Shown piece by piece: positions 43,101 through 49,100 of a stretch of DNA of 64,000 nucleotides. The first letter of the stretch is position 1. Each line of letters begins with the position of its first letter. Source of the DNA: Escherichia coli (GTDB lineage: Bacteria; Pseudomonadota; Gammaproteobacteria; Enterobacterales; Enterobacteriaceae); assembly GCF_024298765.1 (NCBI RefSeq), contig NZ_CP101210.1, one strand, 5' to 3'. Made by a program: the position numbers.

Positions 43101-46100
43101 TCTCGATCTCGCCGCTGATATCGCCATGATGGCGAACTTCTTCAGCTCCGGTCAGGTGTGTACCAACGGCACCCGCGTGTTTATTCCGGCGAAATGCAAA
43201 GCCGCATTTGAACAAAAGATTCTGGCTCGCGTTGAGCGCATTCGCGCGGGCGACGTTTTCGATCCGCAAACTAACTTTGGCCCGCTGGTCAGCTTCCCGC
43301 ATCGCGATAACGTGCTGCGTTACATCGCCAAAGGCAAAGAGGAAGGCGCGCGCGTACTGTGCGGCGGCGATGTACTGAAAGGCGATGGCTTCGATAACGG
43401 CGCATGGGTTGCACCGACCGTGTTCACCGATTGCCGCGACGAAATGACCATCGTGCGCGAAGAGATCTTCGGTCCGGTGATGTCGCTTCTCACTTATGAA
43501 TCTGAGGACGAAGTGATTCGCCGCGCCAATGATACCGACTACGGCCTGGCGGCGGGCATCGTGACGGCGGACCTGAACCGCGCGCATCGCGTCATTCATC
43601 AGCTGGAAGCGGGTATTTGCTGGATCAACACCTGGGGCGAATCCCCTGCAGAGATGCCCGTTGGCGGCTACAAACACTCCGGCATTGGTCGCGAGAACGG
43701 CGTGATGACGCTCCAGAGTTACACCCAGGTGAAGTCCATCCAGGTTGAGATGGCTAAATTCCAGTCCATATTCTAACCAGGAGGTTTATTTGCAATTTGA
43801 CTACATCATTATTGGTGCCGGCTCAGCTGGCAACGTTCTCGCTACCCGTCTGACTGAAGATCCGAACACAACCGTGCTGCTGCTTGAAGCAGGCGGCCCG
43901 GACTATCGCTTTGACTTCCGCACCCAGATGCCCGCCGCGCTGGCGTTCCCGTTACAGGGTAAACGCTATAACTGGGCCTATGAGACGGAACCGGAACCGT
44001 TTATGAACAACCGTCGCATGGAGTGCGGACGCGGTAAGGGGCTTGGCGGGTCATCACTGATCAACGGCATGTGTTACATCCGTGGTAACGCGCTGGATCT
44101 CGATAACTGGGCGAAAGAACCCGGTCTGGAGAACTGGAGCTACCTCGACTGTCTGCCCTACTATCGCAAGGCCGAGACTCGCGATGTGGGCGAGAACGAC
44201 TACCACGGCGGTGATGGCCCGGTGAGCGTCACCACCTCCAAACCCGGCGTCAATCCGCTGTTTGAAGCGATGATTGAAGCGGGCGTGCAGGCGGGCTACC
44301 CGCGCACGGACGATCTCAACGGCTATCAGCAGGAAGGTTTTGGCCCGATGGATCGCACCGTCACGCCGCAGGGCCGTCGCGCCAGCACCGCGCGTGGCTA
44401 TCTCGATCAGGCCAAATCGCGCCCTAACCTGACCATTCGTACTCACGCCATGACCGATCACATCATTTTTGACGGCAAACGCGCGGTGGGCGTCGAGTGG
44501 CTGGAAGGCGACAGCACCATTCCGACCCGCGCGGCGGCGAATAAAGAAGTGCTGTTATGTGCAGGCGCGATTGCTTCACCGCAGATCCTGCAACGCTCCG
44601 GCGTCGGCAACGCTGAACTGCTGGCGGAGTTTGATATTCCGCTGGTGCATGATTTACCCGGCGTCGGCGAAAATCTTCAGGATCACCTGGAGATGTATCT
44701 GCAATATGAGTGCAAAGAACCGGTTTCCCTCTACCCTGCCCTGCAGTGGTGGAATCAGCCGAAAATCGGTGCGGAGTGGCTGTTTGGCGGCACCGGCGTT
44801 GGTGCCAGCAACCACTTTGAAGCAGGCGGATTTATTCGCAGCCGTGAGGAATTTGCGTGGCCGAATATTCAGTACCATTTCCTGCCAGTGGCGATTAACT
44901 ATAACGGCTCGAACGCAGTGAAAGAGCACGGCTTCCAGTGCCACGTCGGATCGATGCGCTCGCCAAGCCGTGGGCATGTGCGGATTAAATCCCGCGACCC
45001 GCACCAGCATCCGGCGATTCTGTTTAACTACATGTCGCACGAGCAGGACTGGCAGGAGTTCCGCGACGCAATTCGCATCACCCGGGAGATCATGCATCAA
45101 CCGGCGCTGGATCAGTATCGTGGCCGCGAAATCAGCCCCGGCGCGGAATGTCAGACGGATGAGCAGCTCGATGAGTTCGTGCGTAACCACGCCGAAACCG
45201 CGTTTCATCCGTGCGGTACCTGCAAAATGGGTTATGACGAGATGGCAGTGGTTGACGCCGAAGGCCGCGTACACAGGCTGGAAGGCCTGCGCGTGGTGGA
45301 TGCGTCAATTATGCCGCAAATTATCACCGGCAATTTGAACGCTACGACGATTATGATTGGCGAGAAAATGGCGGATATGATTCGCGGGCAAGAAGCGTTG
45401 CCGAGGAGCACGGCAAGATATTTTGTGGCAAATGGGATGCCGGTGAGAGCGAAAAAAATGAGTCGTGATGTGAACTAACTCAGGAACCTATCAGATTGAG
45501 AGTTACCGTTCTACTATGAGGACCGAATCCTTATATAAAACACTGAGGTAACTCTCATGCTTCATATCCGCAGTCCCGCCATCAAACTTTAAGCCGATTC
45601 GCTCAATCTGGCGGATGATGGTGCTATGGATACGCTGATAAACCACAAGTGTAATGCCACTCAGCTTAAGAATCACGCAACCAGTGCTCCTGGCTAGGGT
45701 TACTTGTTCTTTCCCACTCCCGGTTAGCAGTGGTCAGCGATCAACTGCGTAAGCCGGGCGTATTTATCCCAAAGCGTGGAGTAATATCAGGTCTACGCTA
45801 AAAAAGTCAATTTATTCGGTTATCATGCACGAAAAGGGGACTTGTGGCGAGTATAAAAATAAGTCAGACCCAAAAACTACGTGGAGCTTTAAACACGGTT
45901 CGTATAATTTATTAGCAGCGATTTATTTTTACCCTTCTTTAATCAGTCATCATGATTAAATATTTTTTATCACAAGATTATCGCTTCTCTAACATTTTAT
46001 TTTTTATTTATTATCAATTGATAAGAAAAAATTGTTAGTACGTTTTTGCAAAAAATTAAAAGTGTTGGAATACACTTAAACAAATGAACAAAAACCAAAC

Positions 46101-49100
46101 AAACTGAGATTTGCAATCAGAAAAAATTATTCAAGAGAACATCTCTAATTTATTGGTAGCGTCCATGAACGATGATTTCCTCACAACCAAAAAGTAAAGA
46201 AAATCTTATGATAAGATATATTTGTAAATTAGTATTATTAACGTCAAAGATCTTTTCTTTTCTGCACCCTTACTTTGCAACGCATAAAAAACAAATAAAA
46301 TCAATAATATATGCAGAAAAAGTTATTTTACGTAAAAATAACATTAAATAAATCAAGACTATTGAACATCACTAAAACATTAGACGTAATACACATTCAC
46401 CCCCGCTCCTTGACTCAGGGTTTTAATATTTTTTGTTTCACATCATTGTAGAAAAAATCGCGCATTAAAAATGAGTTGTAGAAAAACCGCACAATAAATA
46501 TTTCATATTTAATCTATTGCGTAGAACTACTATTCAAAAAATCTTATTAATGAGATAATGAAATTACATCGATAACGTTCTGATTGCAGGCACACTTATC
46601 TGGGTGTGCCTCTTTTTTTTACAACTGTACACGGTGGCGTATGACGAGAAAATATCTCACACAGGATGAAGTCTACAGGCTGATGGATGCAGCCCAGAGC
46701 ATGTCCTTTCCTGAAAGAAATCGCTGTCTAATTATGATGGCTTTCATTCACGGTTTTAGGGCCAGTGAACTTCTTGATTTACGTTTATCCGATATTGATG
46801 CATCAGGAAAACAACTTAATATCCGGCGTATTAAAAATGGCTTCTCGACAACACATCCTCTTCTTCCTGATGAATATAATTTGATCAAGTTGTGGCTTAA
46901 GCAGAGGAAGTTAATTGAAAATGGAGTTGAAGGAGACTGGCTTTTTCTCTCCCGGAAACGCCGCCCTATCAGCAGACAACATTTTTTTTCGATCATTCGT
47001 GAGGCAGGAAGACGTGCAGGATTAGCTGTAAAAGCACATCCTCATATGTTACGTCATGCCTGTGGATTTGCTCTGGCTGACAATGGTGTCGATACCCGAC
47101 TACTTCAGGATTATCTGGGTCATCGAAATATTCAGCATACTGTCAGATACACAGCCAGTAATGCTGCTCGATTTAAAGGGGTGTGGAAAAAAAAGCCTCG
47201 TTAAAACAGTACCTTCTGAATCAAAATGTCAGGTTTTGTAGCAATGGCGTGGACGAGTCTGAATGAAGAAGCCTCTGGTTATTATCAGTGCCTGTCAGTT
47301 CACCAGGCTGGCACTGGAGTCTCTCATCCCAACGGACAGGTATATCGTGCGGGTGTACAGCAACGTCACTACAGAGGTTGAATTCGTTTTAAAGACCTCC
47401 TGTGGCTACCTGTTAGCTGATATCCCATCGCTTCCTTCGGGAGAGTTGGTTCTTCTGGCTTGTCTTGTCCGCTTGCGGAGTGATGCCGGGCAATGGCAGG
47501 TCTGCCTGACCGGTGACTCCGACTGGTTCGATAATGCTCCTGCTGCAAGTCTGTATAACGGCTTCCCACGCATCGGCACCATGCTGACAGCGAGTCGTTA
47601 TCAGAATCAAATTATCCGCTGGTTACTACGTCCTTTGCCCGGCGATATGAGCGATTTCTGGCTCCTGACTGCACGGGAGTTGAGCGTGCTTAAGATTCTG
47701 ATGCAGGGCATGAGTTTCAGTGAGATTGCCCGTTATGAACAACGCAGTTCAAAGACCCTGCATGCGATTGCCACACGGGCTTTAATGAAACTTGGACTGG
47801 GAACACTGAGCGATTTCAGGCTGCTCTATACGGGATGCGGTGACAGCAGAGTGAAACGGAATATACGGCTACATGCAAAATATATCGGACAACATTCCGC
47901 TCATCGACTCACTCAGTATGTGCAGAACATGGTATCCGGAATTCTTTATCCAGAGAAAGTTGCCGTTGGTGAATCAATAAATTCTGACGCCATATCCGGA
48001 AAAGTACTTTCCGGACAAAGAAAAAATATGTCTAAAAAAAGACCAGGATTGTTATGACACAGCAGCGTTGTTACTACCCCCCACTGCGGCGCATACGGAC
48101 TCGCTACAGTGTAGGAGCCAAAATATTTCTACTGCTCTGGGCTGCAGGATTGGGAGGCACGCTGTACAGCCTGTACAGCGTGCTGGCGTACTGACATCTG
48201 TGAGGGAAGGATGCGTTTCGTTCTTTTCTGTCCCTCAGGAATTGTACCAGCGCAGTTCGCAGCTCTATCAACCGGTTCTGTCGGCAATGTTACCTGCATC
48301 AGAACAGAAGAGGAGTTACGCAATAAATTGCGGCACAGGCCACAGAATGTCGTGATATCGGCAGGGCGACCTGCCGAATGCGCTGAAATGTGGTTCCGAT
48401 TTTATCGGGATCACTCATTCGTGGTGGTGTTGTGCGTCGCACCCTTTTTTCTGCCACCAGATGTGAGTATTTCTGGCGTTCTCAAAAACCTGAGGTTACT
48501 GAAACCAGGAATGTCAGTAGAGCGTGTCATCAGTATTGCAAATGCCTCTGGTGGGTTTTCAGGGCTGAAACATGCAGAAATTTTGCCAGTTATGGACAGT
48601 TACTCTGTCTTTATGAAAGAGGTGAATAACCGCACAAAGACAATCGTCATGTCAGAACGCTTCCCGGAAAAGCAAAAGAAGGTGTTGTCGTTGCTTCTTG
48701 CCGGACACAGCTGGGAATACAGTGCGCAGTTTCTCAAAACGGGGATAAGACAGATATGGCTTGCCGAGCAGTCGCTAAAAAAGCGTTGGGGAATACCGGA
48801 CAGCATGTCATTGCGGGAAGCCCTGCTGCTGAGCAGCAATAATTTTCACGGTGATGGAAATGCATTGGAAACAACGAATGCCATGACATTGCGTGAAAAC
48901 GGAAATACCAACAGGTATTCCGTGGTGGTAAATGCAGGGACGCAGGCTTTATCTCTGCATAAATATAAATAAGTGGGAAATTGAAATTAGTTACCAGAAT
49001 GGAGAATTTCTTCATGAAAAACAGTAAGGCATTTTACCGCAGCGCATTAGCAACAGCTATTGTTATGGCTCTTTCTGCACCAGCATTCGCTGCTGATAAC

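What the first reader, a model, noticed from the sequence alone, without database searches (positions are those of the whole stretch)
45479..46640. 1.16-kb AT-rich non-coding region ending in a strong terminator immediately before the recombinase gene
No ORF of 60 codons or more exists between betA and the recombinase. The region contains (i) a strong + strand terminator (8-bp GC-rich stem plus T8) only about 20 bp before the recombinase ATG, leaving no room for a promoter between them; (ii) two direct repeats TTGTAGAAAAA(a)(t/c)CGC(g/a)CA at 46446..46464 and 46476..46493, 30 bp apart; and (iii) a 10-bp repeat TTATCTGGGT shared between the terminator loop/stem (46596..46605) and the recombinase 3' region (47110..47119). 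The terminator could end a small RNA or leader made from this region, or gate recombinase expression by read-through control. The repeats could be regulator or recombinase binding sites.
Basis: partly seen in the sequence, partly recalled or inferred. Interest (0 to 1): 0.5.

Follow-up and report, generated by a model that had tools for sequence, protein, structure and literature searches.

The report
Conserved leader terminator before ipbA/fimX invertase
The long gene-free stretch is the uncharacterised upstream region of the E. coli phase-switch recombinase IpbA (FimX), and the hairpin-plus-T-run just before the gene is a real, evolutionarily conserved transcription stop signal that most likely throttles how much recombinase is made.

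Summary
The window is E. coli. The region lies between betA and ipbA (= fimX = hbiF), the first gene of the known PAI-X island (ipbA-hyxR-hyxA-hyxB). The coordinates, the lack of long ORFs, the hairpin plus T8 and the two direct repeats are all as described.

The hairpin is the solid part:
- It folds at -14.8 kcal/mol (z = -5).
- It is kept in every E. coli allele.
- It recurs about 24-40 nt before the start codon in two other recombinase modules (81-83% protein identity).
- One of those modules has two compensatory and two wobble stem changes.

No credible promoter fits in the 20 nt between the T-run and the ATG. I therefore read it as a leader terminator, attenuator or insulator that lets only read-through transcripts reach ipbA. 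No transcript data could be consulted.

The weaker parts:
- The direct repeats are marginal (about 3-4% of shuffles) and only partly conserved.
- The 10-bp repeat is chance.
- Only about 45830-46600 is AT-rich.
- Conservation is patchy: two conserved blocks flank a hypervariable spacer.

In this strain the invertible hyxR promoter (hyxS) is cleanly missing. The upstream region may therefore be the only promoter source for the island.

Verdict: ordinary kind of element, modest novelty.

The parts
45479..45569 (.). Core-genome 3' flank of betA, shared with E. coli genomes that lack the island. It contains the inverted repeat 45497-45507 / 45547-45557.
   Evidence: K-12-like genomes match the query only up to 45569. 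The inverted repeat is I12.
45570..45829 (.). Left end of PAI-X. It is non-coding with normal GC content. It includes a 96-nt segment (45722-45817) found only in this allele lineage.
   Evidence: Alignment A1. The 96-nt segment is single-copy in 85 of 5426 genomes. No Pfam hit for the - strand ORF.
45830..46060 (.). Distal conserved AT-rich block. It holds a perfect TATAAT at 45903-45908 and the palindrome TTATCAATTGATAA at 46011-46024. Its role is unknown; a distal promoter or operator region is possible.
   Evidence: Identity is 82-90% between the window and the other alleles and 95-99% among the other alleles. PWM hits are conserved across alleles.
46120..46360 (.). Hypervariable AT-rich spacer, about 60-73% identical between the three allele groups. 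It contains the only consensus-scan promoter hit on the + strand inside 45479-46640 (TTTGCA-16-TAAAAT, 46274-46301). The -10 TAAAAT at 46296-46301 is invariant.
46440..46587 (+). Proximal conserved block, the candidate ipbA promoter and leader. It holds the direct repeats 46446-46464 and 46476-46493 and the invariant CGCATTAAAAATG at 46461-46473.
   Evidence: Identity is 94-96% across E. coli alleles from about 46461 onward.
46588..46620 (+). Intrinsic-terminator motif: hairpin 46588-46611, then C, then T8 at 46613-46620.
   Evidence: -14.8 kcal/mol, z = -5.0. Conserved in all alleles. Compensatory changes in paralogous modules. The covariance model finds it only in the IpbA clade.
46621..46640 (+). 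20-nt gap between the T-run and the ATG. It carries a weak Shine-Dalgarno-like GGTGG at 46633-46637 and has no room for a sigma-70 promoter.
46641..47204 (+). ipbA (= fimX = hbiF), a FimB/FimE-family tyrosine DNA invertase.
   Evidence: RefSeq annotation of the identical strain 104. Pfam PF00589, E = 7.7e-50.
47211..47235 (+). Junction where the about 250-270-bp invertible hyxS element (the hyxR promoter switch) is missing. A single hyxS-type site remains at 47217-47232.
   Evidence: The ipbA-hyxR gap is 58 bp here against 329 bp in ST131. Site found. The junction is present in 90 genomes.
47263..48057 (+). hyxR, a LuxR-type regulator. In this strain it follows ipbA directly, with no switch or promoter of its own detected.

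Best explanation
The region is the non-coding upstream region of ipbA/fimX at the left end of the PAI-X island. Its functional core is a conserved intrinsic terminator (hairpin 46588-46611 plus U8) that sits in the ipbA leader, 20 nt before the start codon.

Proposed mechanism:
- Transcription entering from upstream mostly stops at about 46618-46621. It may start at a weak promoter in the conserved proximal block, at promoters in the AT-rich DNA, or at betIBA by read-through.
- Only the fraction that reads through carries the weak ribosome-binding site and the ipbA ORF.
- The terminator therefore keeps recombinase expression low and insulated. The terminated leader RNA is a by-product.
- In this strain the invertible hyxR promoter is missing. 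The same gate probably sits in front of ipbA-hyxR, and possibly hyxAB, as one unit.

Shown:
- The motif, its fold and its strand specificity.
- Its conservation, with compensatory changes.
- The absence of a promoter-like site downstream of it.
- The absence of hyxS in this strain.

Inferred:
- That termination occurs in vivo.
- That ipbA depends on read-through.
- Where the promoter is.
- That the AT-rich DNA is H-NS bound.
For: - The hairpin plus T8 is by far the best terminator-like site in 45300-47400. It folds at -14.8 kcal/mol, z = -5.0.
- On the - strand no T-run follows it, so it works in one direction only (sequence).
- It is kept in all E. coli alleles examined. This holds even though the spacer 250 nt upstream has diverged to 60-70% identity.
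- The only stem polymorphism is C/T at 46593, which turns G-C into G-U.
- Two other recombinase modules carry a hairpin plus T-run about 24-40 nt before the start codon. L015 (83% identity) keeps the same stem with a larger loop. L009/L018 (81% identity, different chromosomal site) has a different stem sequence: CGGGCUGCUCAU/AUGAGUGGCCCG, -19.1 kcal/mol.
- Over the 7 shared stem pairs, 100% of cells pair. Two pairs change on both sides and two change on one side through wobble. Slid controls drop to 20-71% paired.
- All three arm mismatches seen are G-U-compatible. This fits an RNA hairpin rather than a double-stranded DNA operator.
- No promoter-like site lies between the T-run and the ATG.
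- Homology among the three module types starts only about 20 nt upstream of the hairpin. The hairpin therefore travels with the recombinase gene.
- A functional precedent exists in E. coli. Expression of the phase-variable flu/agn43 gene is controlled at a terminator in its leader, annotated as IsrC (PMC5389530, citing Wallecha 2014).
Against: - No transcript data were available. Termination, read-through and the transcription start site are all unverified.
- The promoter could not be located. All candidates are weak (below 8 bits).
- Both compensatory pairs come from one lineage (L009/L018). 15 of 500 column shuffles reach the same score.
- In most E. coli alleles 3 nt (CUC) separate the stem from the U-run, and O157 has only U6. 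Efficiency may therefore be modest.
- The closest Salmonella orthologue (STM0716, 72% identity) has no stable hairpin there.
- Only 9 of 66 diverse family loci have any terminator-like site within 200 nt upstream. This is not a general feature of Fim-type invertases.
- The papers that cloned fimX/hbiF/ipbA with native upstream DNA are not in the library. A mapped promoter may already exist.
Confidence: 0.5

Rival explanations
1. The conserved proximal block is a stand-alone small-RNA gene of about 140-310 nt that ends at the terminator. It would have its own targets. ipbA would be transcribed independently from a promoter that the consensus scans do not recognise.
For: - The sharp rise in conservation from about 46440-46461 to the terminator resembles an sRNA gene: promoter, body, then a U8 terminator.
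- CGCATTAAAAATG at 46461-46473 is invariant and could serve as a -10 region.
- The fold of 46440-46625 is more stable than shuffles, z = -3.0.
- There is a weak structural resemblance to the IS102/IsrC model.
Against: - No Rfam family reaches its threshold (25.8 bits against 46).
- The body upstream of the hairpin is not conserved in the paralogous modules. Only the hairpin, the T-run and about 20 nt are.
- There is no room for a separate ipbA promoter after the terminator. Even in this model ipbA needs read-through.
- No strong promoter was found.
Confidence: 0.17
2. The hairpin does not terminate efficiently in vivo. Instead it is a 5'-UTR structure that controls ipbA mRNA stability or translation, for example as a protective stem-loop, an Hfq or U-rich binding platform, or a partner in occluding the weak ribosome-binding site.
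For: - The Shine-Dalgarno-like sequence is weak (GGTGG, 3 nt from the ATG).
- Folds of the last 78 nt pair the sequence flanking the hairpin (AUCGAUAACGUU) with the ACACGGUGGCG region that contains it.
- The 1-3-nt spacer between stem and U-run in E. coli alleles is suboptimal for termination.
- A related clade (P0029, 64% identity) has a GC hairpin 23 nt before the ATG without a U-run.
Against: - A U-rich run directly after the stem is kept in all three IpbA-clade module types. A pure stability element would not need it.
- The flanking helix is weak and was not tested for covariation.
Confidence: 0.15
3. The region is decaying island DNA with no specific function. The hairpin would be a relic terminator of a lost upstream gene, and the repeats chance products of AT-rich sequence.
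For: - The region is 1.16 kb without a gene.
- The middle is hypervariable.
- The 10-bp repeat and several inverted repeats are at chance level.
- There is a lineage-specific 96-nt indel.
Against: - Two blocks are conserved at 90-99% next to a spacer at 60-70%.
- The hairpin is maintained with compensatory changes in modules inserted at different chromosomal sites.
- The hairpin keeps a fixed distance to the recombinase start.
Confidence: 0.1
4. The upstream region contains a second Fim-type invertible switch, or the repeats are recombinase binding sites.
For: - Fim-type recombinases usually act on nearby switches (PMC6083910).
- A hyxS-repeat-like site with 3 mismatches lies at 46104-46119 on the - strand, inverted relative to the remaining site at 47217-47232.
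Against: - That site is not conserved in the other alleles. About 1.35 such hits are expected by chance in the window.
- Genome-wide inversion mapping with over-expressed FimX found only fimS, hyxS and ipuS in UTI89 and CFT073 (PMC6458436).
- The direct repeats do not resemble the hyxS inverted repeat.
Confidence: 0.03

Closest known systems
IsrC / agn43 (flu) leader terminator of E. coli K-12 (Rfam RF00124, IS102)
   Same: An intrinsic terminator sits in the leader directly upstream of a phase-variation-related gene. The terminated leader appears as a small RNA, and downstream expression needs read-through or antitermination (PMC5389530, citing Wallecha et al. 2014). It is the only Rfam model that gives any signal here.
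   Different: The match is 25.8 bits against a gathering score of 46 and rests on the terminator hairpin only. There is no sequence homology. The gene controlled here is a recombinase, not an autotransporter. No antitermination determinant has been identified.
fimB / fimE regulatory regions of the type 1 fimbrial switch
   Same: The recombinase belongs to the same family. Upstream non-coding DNA is unusually long and AT-rich (nanC-fimB is about 1.45 kb in K-12). From my own knowledge, fimB is H-NS-repressed and controlled from distant upstream sites, and FimE expression is controlled by a terminator. K-12 has a strong hairpin plus T-run 85 nt before fimE (L007 2623-2652, -16.1 kcal/mol).
   Different: There is no detectable sequence homology to the fimB or fimE upstream regions, and the covariance model does not hit them. 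The known fimE terminator is Rho-dependent and lies downstream, in fimS. fimB has no terminator-like site before its start. The fimE-upstream hairpin leaves about 79 nt for a promoter; here only 20 nt remain.
PAI-X island (fimX-hyxS-hyxRAB) of ExPEC strains UTI89, CFT073 and EC958
   Same: The genes, their order and the insertion site between betA and ykgH are the same (PMC3789825, PMC6083910).
   Different: This strain's allele lacks hyxS. Its upstream region is only about 81% identical to the ExPEC and O157 alleles. The upstream region and its terminator are not described in any paper I could read.
Salmonella T1-antigen switch recombinase STM0716
   Same: It is the closest orthologue outside Escherichia (72% identity), with the same recombinase-switch-downstream operon layout (PMC11294581).
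   Different: Its 515-bp upstream region has no stable hairpin at the corresponding place (-2.5 kcal/mol, z = +0.6). Only the CTCATCTGA core of the loop region aligns.

Membership tests
Intrinsic (Rho-independent) terminator | Stable G+C-rich stem-loop | tested here: met
   10 pairs, 5 of them G-C. -14.8 kcal/mol, z = -5.0.
Intrinsic (Rho-independent) terminator | U-tract immediately 3' of the stem on the transcribed strand | tested here: met
   T8 at 46613-46620, 1 nt after the stem. Other alleles have a 3-nt spacer and T6-T8. There is no T-run on the - strand.
Intrinsic (Rho-independent) terminator | Structure maintained in evolution | tested here: met
   100% pairing in 7 distinct sequences, with 2 compensatory and 2 wobble pairs. 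The sample is small and both compensatory pairs come from one lineage.
Intrinsic (Rho-independent) terminator | Transcript 3' ends at the U-tract in vivo or in vitro | not testable with these tools
   No transcriptome data could be consulted.
Leader attenuator of the IsrC/agn43 type (Rfam RF00124) | Match to the family model at its gathering score | tested here: not met
   25.8 bits against 46, aligned on the terminator only.
Leader attenuator (generic) | Terminator lies between the promoter and the start codon of the regulated gene | tested here: inconclusive
   The terminator is 20 nt before the ATG with no promoter-like site after it. The upstream promoter could not be placed.
Leader attenuator (generic) | Alternative antiterminator structure or leader peptide | tested here: not met
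   No conserved alternative pairing was found. The 8-codon mini-ORF (46472-46498) has no Shine-Dalgarno sequence. Three of the four differences seen in it between alleles change the amino acid.
Stand-alone sRNA gene | Own promoter plus terminator bounding a conserved body | tested here: inconclusive
   The terminator is present and conservation rises at about 46440-46461. The promoter is only weak. The body is not conserved in paralogous modules.
Fim-type invertible promoter switch (fimS / hyxS / ipuS) | Conserved inverted repeats flanking about 250-320 bp next to the recombinase gene | tested here: not met
   No conserved inverted-repeat pair lies in 45570-46640. Published inversion mapping found none. 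hyxS itself is absent from this window.
H-NS-silenced AT-rich regulatory region (fimB-like) | AT-rich, long, horizontally acquired non-coding DNA | tested here: met
   22-31% GC over 45830-46600, inside an island.
H-NS-silenced AT-rich regulatory region (fimB-like) | H-NS occupancy, or derepression in an hns mutant | not testable with these tools
   The only lead is an 8-of-10 match (TCGATAACGT, 46569-46578) to the H-NS nucleation motif, which I recall from memory.
PAI-X island | ipbA/fimX, hyxR, hyxA and hyxB between betA and ykgH | tested here: met
   100% identical to annotated strain 104.
PAI-X island | hyxS invertible element between fimX and hyxR | tested here: not met
   58-bp gap with a single site left.

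The most novel reading that the evidence does not exclude
The hairpin-U-tract would be a module-borne 'entry gate'. In this reading the IpbA-type invertase has no dedicated promoter and is expressed only by leakage through a conserved terminator that travels with the gene. Switching frequency would then be set by whatever transcription arrives from upstream: H-NS-relieved AT-rich DNA, or the osmotically and choline-induced betIBA operon. In the roughly 90 hyxS-less genomes this single gate would control the whole ipbA-hyxRAB island. The abundant terminated leader could additionally act as a regulatory RNA.
Probability: 0.15. Interest if true: 0.55.

Novelty: new member of a known kind. Interest (0 to 1): 0.35.

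Why it matters
IpbA/FimX turns type 1 fimbriae on in uropathogenic and ST131 E. coli and flips the hyxR switch. How its own expression is set is essentially undescribed in the literature I could reach.

A conserved terminator 20 nt before the start codon gives a concrete, easily mutable handle on that question. It could explain why the recombinase is normally expressed at very low level.

The finding also flags a natural lineage of about 90 complete genomes in which the cognate hyxS switch has been excised. In those genomes hyxRAB expression must depend on this upstream region.

None of this is a new principle. Leader terminators and H-NS-type AT-rich regulatory regions are well known.

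Tried and rejected
- **Rfam.** E-value mode on the region and gathering mode on the whole window found only a sub-threshold IS102/IsrC hit resting on the terminator.
- **Homology to K-12 fim regions.** The nanC-fimB region, the fimB-fimE region and fimS give only low-complexity AT matches.
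- **Small ORFs.** None has a Pfam hit. The - strand ORF that crosses the island border is open in two alleles, but its protein sequence is poorly conserved. The 44-aa 'hypothetical protein' annotated in O157 lies in the hypervariable spacer and is not conserved here.
- **Leader-peptide idea.** The mini-ORF 46472-46498 was rejected. It has no Shine-Dalgarno sequence, and three of the four differences seen in it between alleles change the amino acid.
- **Second invertible element or recombinase sites.** Rejected.
- **10-bp repeat.** Chance.
- **The 96-nt extra segment as a mobile repeat.** Rejected; it is single-copy and lineage-specific.
- **Promoter mapping.** The consensus scan and a PWM scan across alleles gave no strong candidate.
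- **Hairpin as a family-wide feature.** This does not hold. Only 9 of 66 diverse loci have a terminator-like site. The covariance model finds the element only in the IpbA clade.
- **Genome-contig scan.** It returned a single extra Escherichia locus.
- **Key papers not held.** Xie 2006, Bryan 2006, Hannan 2008, Bateman 2012 and Bateman 2013.
- **Other literature searches.** A text search for the sequence strings found nothing relevant. One search was too loose and gave nothing useful.

Full report
**What the locus is.** The window is E. coli. Positions 45300-48200 are 100% identical to strain 104, a chicken isolate. [quoted passage not shown] This is the published PAI-X island (PMC3789825; PMC6083910). 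Genomes without the island match only up to 45569. In those genomes the betA flank runs straight into ykgH. The finding's interval therefore has two parts: 91 nt of core betA flank (45479-45569) and the non-coding left end of the island (45570-46640). About 1890 of 5426 complete E. coli genomes carry this upstream region.

**Checking the observation.**
- There is no ORF of 60 codons or more. The longest are 59 and 57 aa, and none of the small ORFs has a Pfam match.
- The hairpin is at 46588-46611, followed by C and T8 (46613-46620). Twenty nt separate the T-run from the ATG at 46641.
- The hairpin alone folds at -14.8 kcal/mol, z = -5.0. On the opposite strand it is not followed by a T-run.
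An exact non-trivial 11-mer repeated within 60 nt arises in 3-4% of dinucleotide shuffles.
It is unremarkable: 67 of 1000 shuffles give such a recurrence, and there are 13 repeated 10-mers in 3 kb against 6.4 +/- 3.6 expected.
- Only about 45830-46600 is AT-rich (22-31% GC). The first 350 nt are 44-50% GC.

**Anatomy from comparison of alleles.** Three allele groups of the upstream region exist in E. coli. The window lineage has about 85 genomes. A B2/ST131-type group and an O157/ET300-type group are each only about 81% identical to the window. Conservation along the region is uneven:

| Segment | Identity |
|---|---|
| Distal block, about 45830-46060 | 82-90% to the window, 95-99% among the others |
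| Spacer, about 46120-46360 | 60-73% between all three groups |
| Proximal block, about 46461 to the ATG | 94-99% |

The window lineage also has a private 96-nt segment (45722-45817). It is single-copy, so it is not a mobile repeat. Because the divergence is three-way, the pattern is not one recombination break-point. It points to constraint on the two blocks and none on the spacer.

**The hairpin is the conserved feature.**
- All E. coli alleles keep it. Variation is limited to C/T at 46593 (G-C to G-U), one loop base, a CT indel between stem and T-run, and T6-T8.
- More tellingly, the nearest non-identical recombinases carry a hairpin plus T-run about 24-40 nt before their start codons.
- L015 (83% identity) has the same GGCACAC/GTGTGCC stem with a larger loop, then TTTTCTTTT.
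- L009/L018 (81% identity) lies behind budAB at a different chromosomal site. It has the same recombinase, two small genes and autotransporter layout. Its hairpin is CGGGCTGCTCAT/ATGAGTGGCCCG followed by TTCTTTTTT, at -19.1 kcal/mol.
- MAFFT aligns the three hairpins in register. On the seven shared pairs every sequence pairs. Two pairs change on both sides and two change through wobble. Sliding the partner columns drops pairing to 20-71%.
- The caveat is that both double changes come from one lineage, and 15 of 500 shuffles do as well.
- Homology between the module types begins only about 20 nt upstream of the hairpin. The hairpin therefore belongs to the recombinase module, not to the particular upstream DNA.

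**Limits of that conservation.**
- The Salmonella orthologue STM0716 (72% identity) has lost the stable hairpin.
- A covariance model of the element finds it nowhere else among 80 sources, including K-12 fimB and fimE.
- Among 66 diverse family loci from metagenomes, only 9 have any terminator-like site within 200 nt upstream.
- One unrelated clade (L043, L054, L056, L059) does have a hairpin plus T-run about 25-35 nt before the recombinase start. In L054, the one read directly, it is T7 ending about 20 nt before the ATG, with no gene ending nearby.
- K-12 fimE has a strong hairpin plus T5 85 nt upstream.
- The arrangement recurs but is not a family-wide rule.

**Mechanism.** The consensus scan finds no promoter-like site between the T-run and the ATG. 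Its only + strand hit inside 45479-46640 is 46274-46301. A PWM scan across alleles gives only weak candidates. They include the invariant -10-like TAAAAT at 46296, TATAAT at 45903, and the invariant CGCATTAAAAATG at 46461-46473, which lies 16 nt after repeat 1's TTGTAG. So ipbA mRNA must begin upstream of the hairpin and pass through it.

I conclude that the hairpin is a leader terminator, attenuator or insulator that lets only read-through transcripts reach a gene with a weak ribosome-binding site (GGTGG, 3 nt from the ATG). This suits an invertase that is needed in trace amounts.

The nearest functional precedent in E. coli is the agn43/flu leader, whose terminated form is the sRNA IsrC. The Rfam model for it gives the only hit here, but below threshold and on the terminator alone. 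This is an analogy, not family membership.

I found no conserved antiterminator or leader peptide. The 8-codon ORF at 46472-46498 varies at non-synonymous sites and lacks a Shine-Dalgarno sequence. No transcript data could be consulted, so termination and read-through remain inference.

**The repeats.** Copy 2 (TTGTAGAAAA-C-GCACA) is kept in all E. coli alleles. Copy 1 is degenerate in the others (TAGTAGATAAAAA / ATGTAGAT...). Neither copy exists in the paralogous modules, and they do not resemble the hyxS inverted repeat. They overlap the best-guess promoter: copy 1 at the -35 position and copy 2 near the predicted start. They could be an operator pair, but that is speculation. Their reverse complement resembles the terminator tail (TTGTAAAAAAA, 46614-46624). 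RNAfold pairs repeat 1 with the U-tail. The ET300 allele breaks that match, so I give it little weight.

**Context that changes the stakes.** In UTI89, CFT073 and ST131 the invertible hyxS element carries the hyxR promoter. It has 16-bp inverted repeats and lies between fimX and hyxR (PMC6083910; sequence). In this window the gap is 58 bp instead of 329 bp. The alignment break-points overlap at 47211-47235, and one site (TGAATCAAAATGTCAG, 47217-47232) remains. That is what excision between the left inverted repeat and a directly oriented third copy just beyond the right inverted repeat would leave. The junction is present in 90 genomes, essentially the lineage with the private 96-nt segment. 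In these strains hyxR has no promoter of its own that I can see. The region under study, and its terminator, may therefore gate the whole island.

**What it is not.** It is not a second invertible switch. There is no conserved inverted-repeat pair, and published genome-wide inversion mapping with over-expressed FimX found only fimS, hyxS and ipuS. It is not homologous to the fimB or fimE upstream regions. It is not a known RNA family.

**Verdict.** The element is of a familiar kind, a leader terminator in an AT-rich island-borne regulatory region, and is apparently undescribed for this gene. Interest is moderate.

Noticed in passing
window 47205-47262 (junction 47211-47235): The invertible hyxS element, which carries the hyxR promoter, is cleanly absent. 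The ipbA-hyxR gap is 58 bp against 329 bp in ST131, and one 16-bp site is left. This looks like excision between directly oriented copies. The junction occurs in 90 of 5426 complete genomes.
   Followed up: partly
window 46120-46360: A hypervariable spacer is only about 60-73% identical between three E. coli allele groups. The sequence on either side is 90-99% identical. That is extreme divergence for within-species non-coding DNA.
   Followed up: partly
window 45722-45817: A 96-nt segment is present only in this allele lineage (85 genomes). It is single-copy and absent from the ST131 and O157-type alleles. It contains a - strand promoter-like hit (45810..45783).
   Followed up: partly
window 45564-45569 and 51379-51384: The hexamer ATATCC occurs at both island junctions and once at the empty site in K-12-like genomes, like a target-site duplication. 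The ST131 allele differs at the left junction, so this is uncertain.
   Followed up: partly
window 46688-46701 and 48133-48146; 48157-48183: A perfect 14-nt inverted repeat has one arm inside the 5' end of ipbA and the other after hyxR. A perfect 13+13 palindrome also lies between hyxR and hyxA. The repeat is exact in some alleles and has a mismatch in others. No inversion is reported in the literature I could read.
   Followed up: partly
L007 (K-12) 2623-2652: A strong hairpin plus T5 (-16.1 kcal/mol, z = -6) lies 85 nt upstream of fimE and 360 nt after fimB. It is not homologous to the ipbA hairpin according to the covariance model.
   Followed up: partly
L009/L010/L011/L018: A paralogous module sits downstream of budAB in some E. 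coli. It comprises an 81%-identical invertase, a gap, 242-aa and 248-aa proteins, and an autotransporter. It is apparently a second PAI-X-like switch locus.
   Followed up: no
window 46011-46024: The perfect 14-bp palindrome TTATCAATTGATAA lies in the distal conserved block. Its core CAATTG is kept in all alleles. It may be a regulator site.
   Followed up: no
window 46446-46457 with 46613-46624: Repeat 1 (UUGUAGAAAAAA) is complementary to the terminator's U-tail plus ACAA. RNAfold pairs them (z = -3.0 for 46440-46625). The match is broken in the ET300 allele.
   Followed up: partly
window 8646-8817 and 27323-27392: Three matches to Rfam naRNA4 (REP-type elements) score above the gathering threshold.
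   Followed up: no
window about 36300-38967 (L001 1-2668): The autotransporter gene ehaA next to betT is annotated as a pseudogene (internal stop) in the identical strain 104.
   Followed up: no
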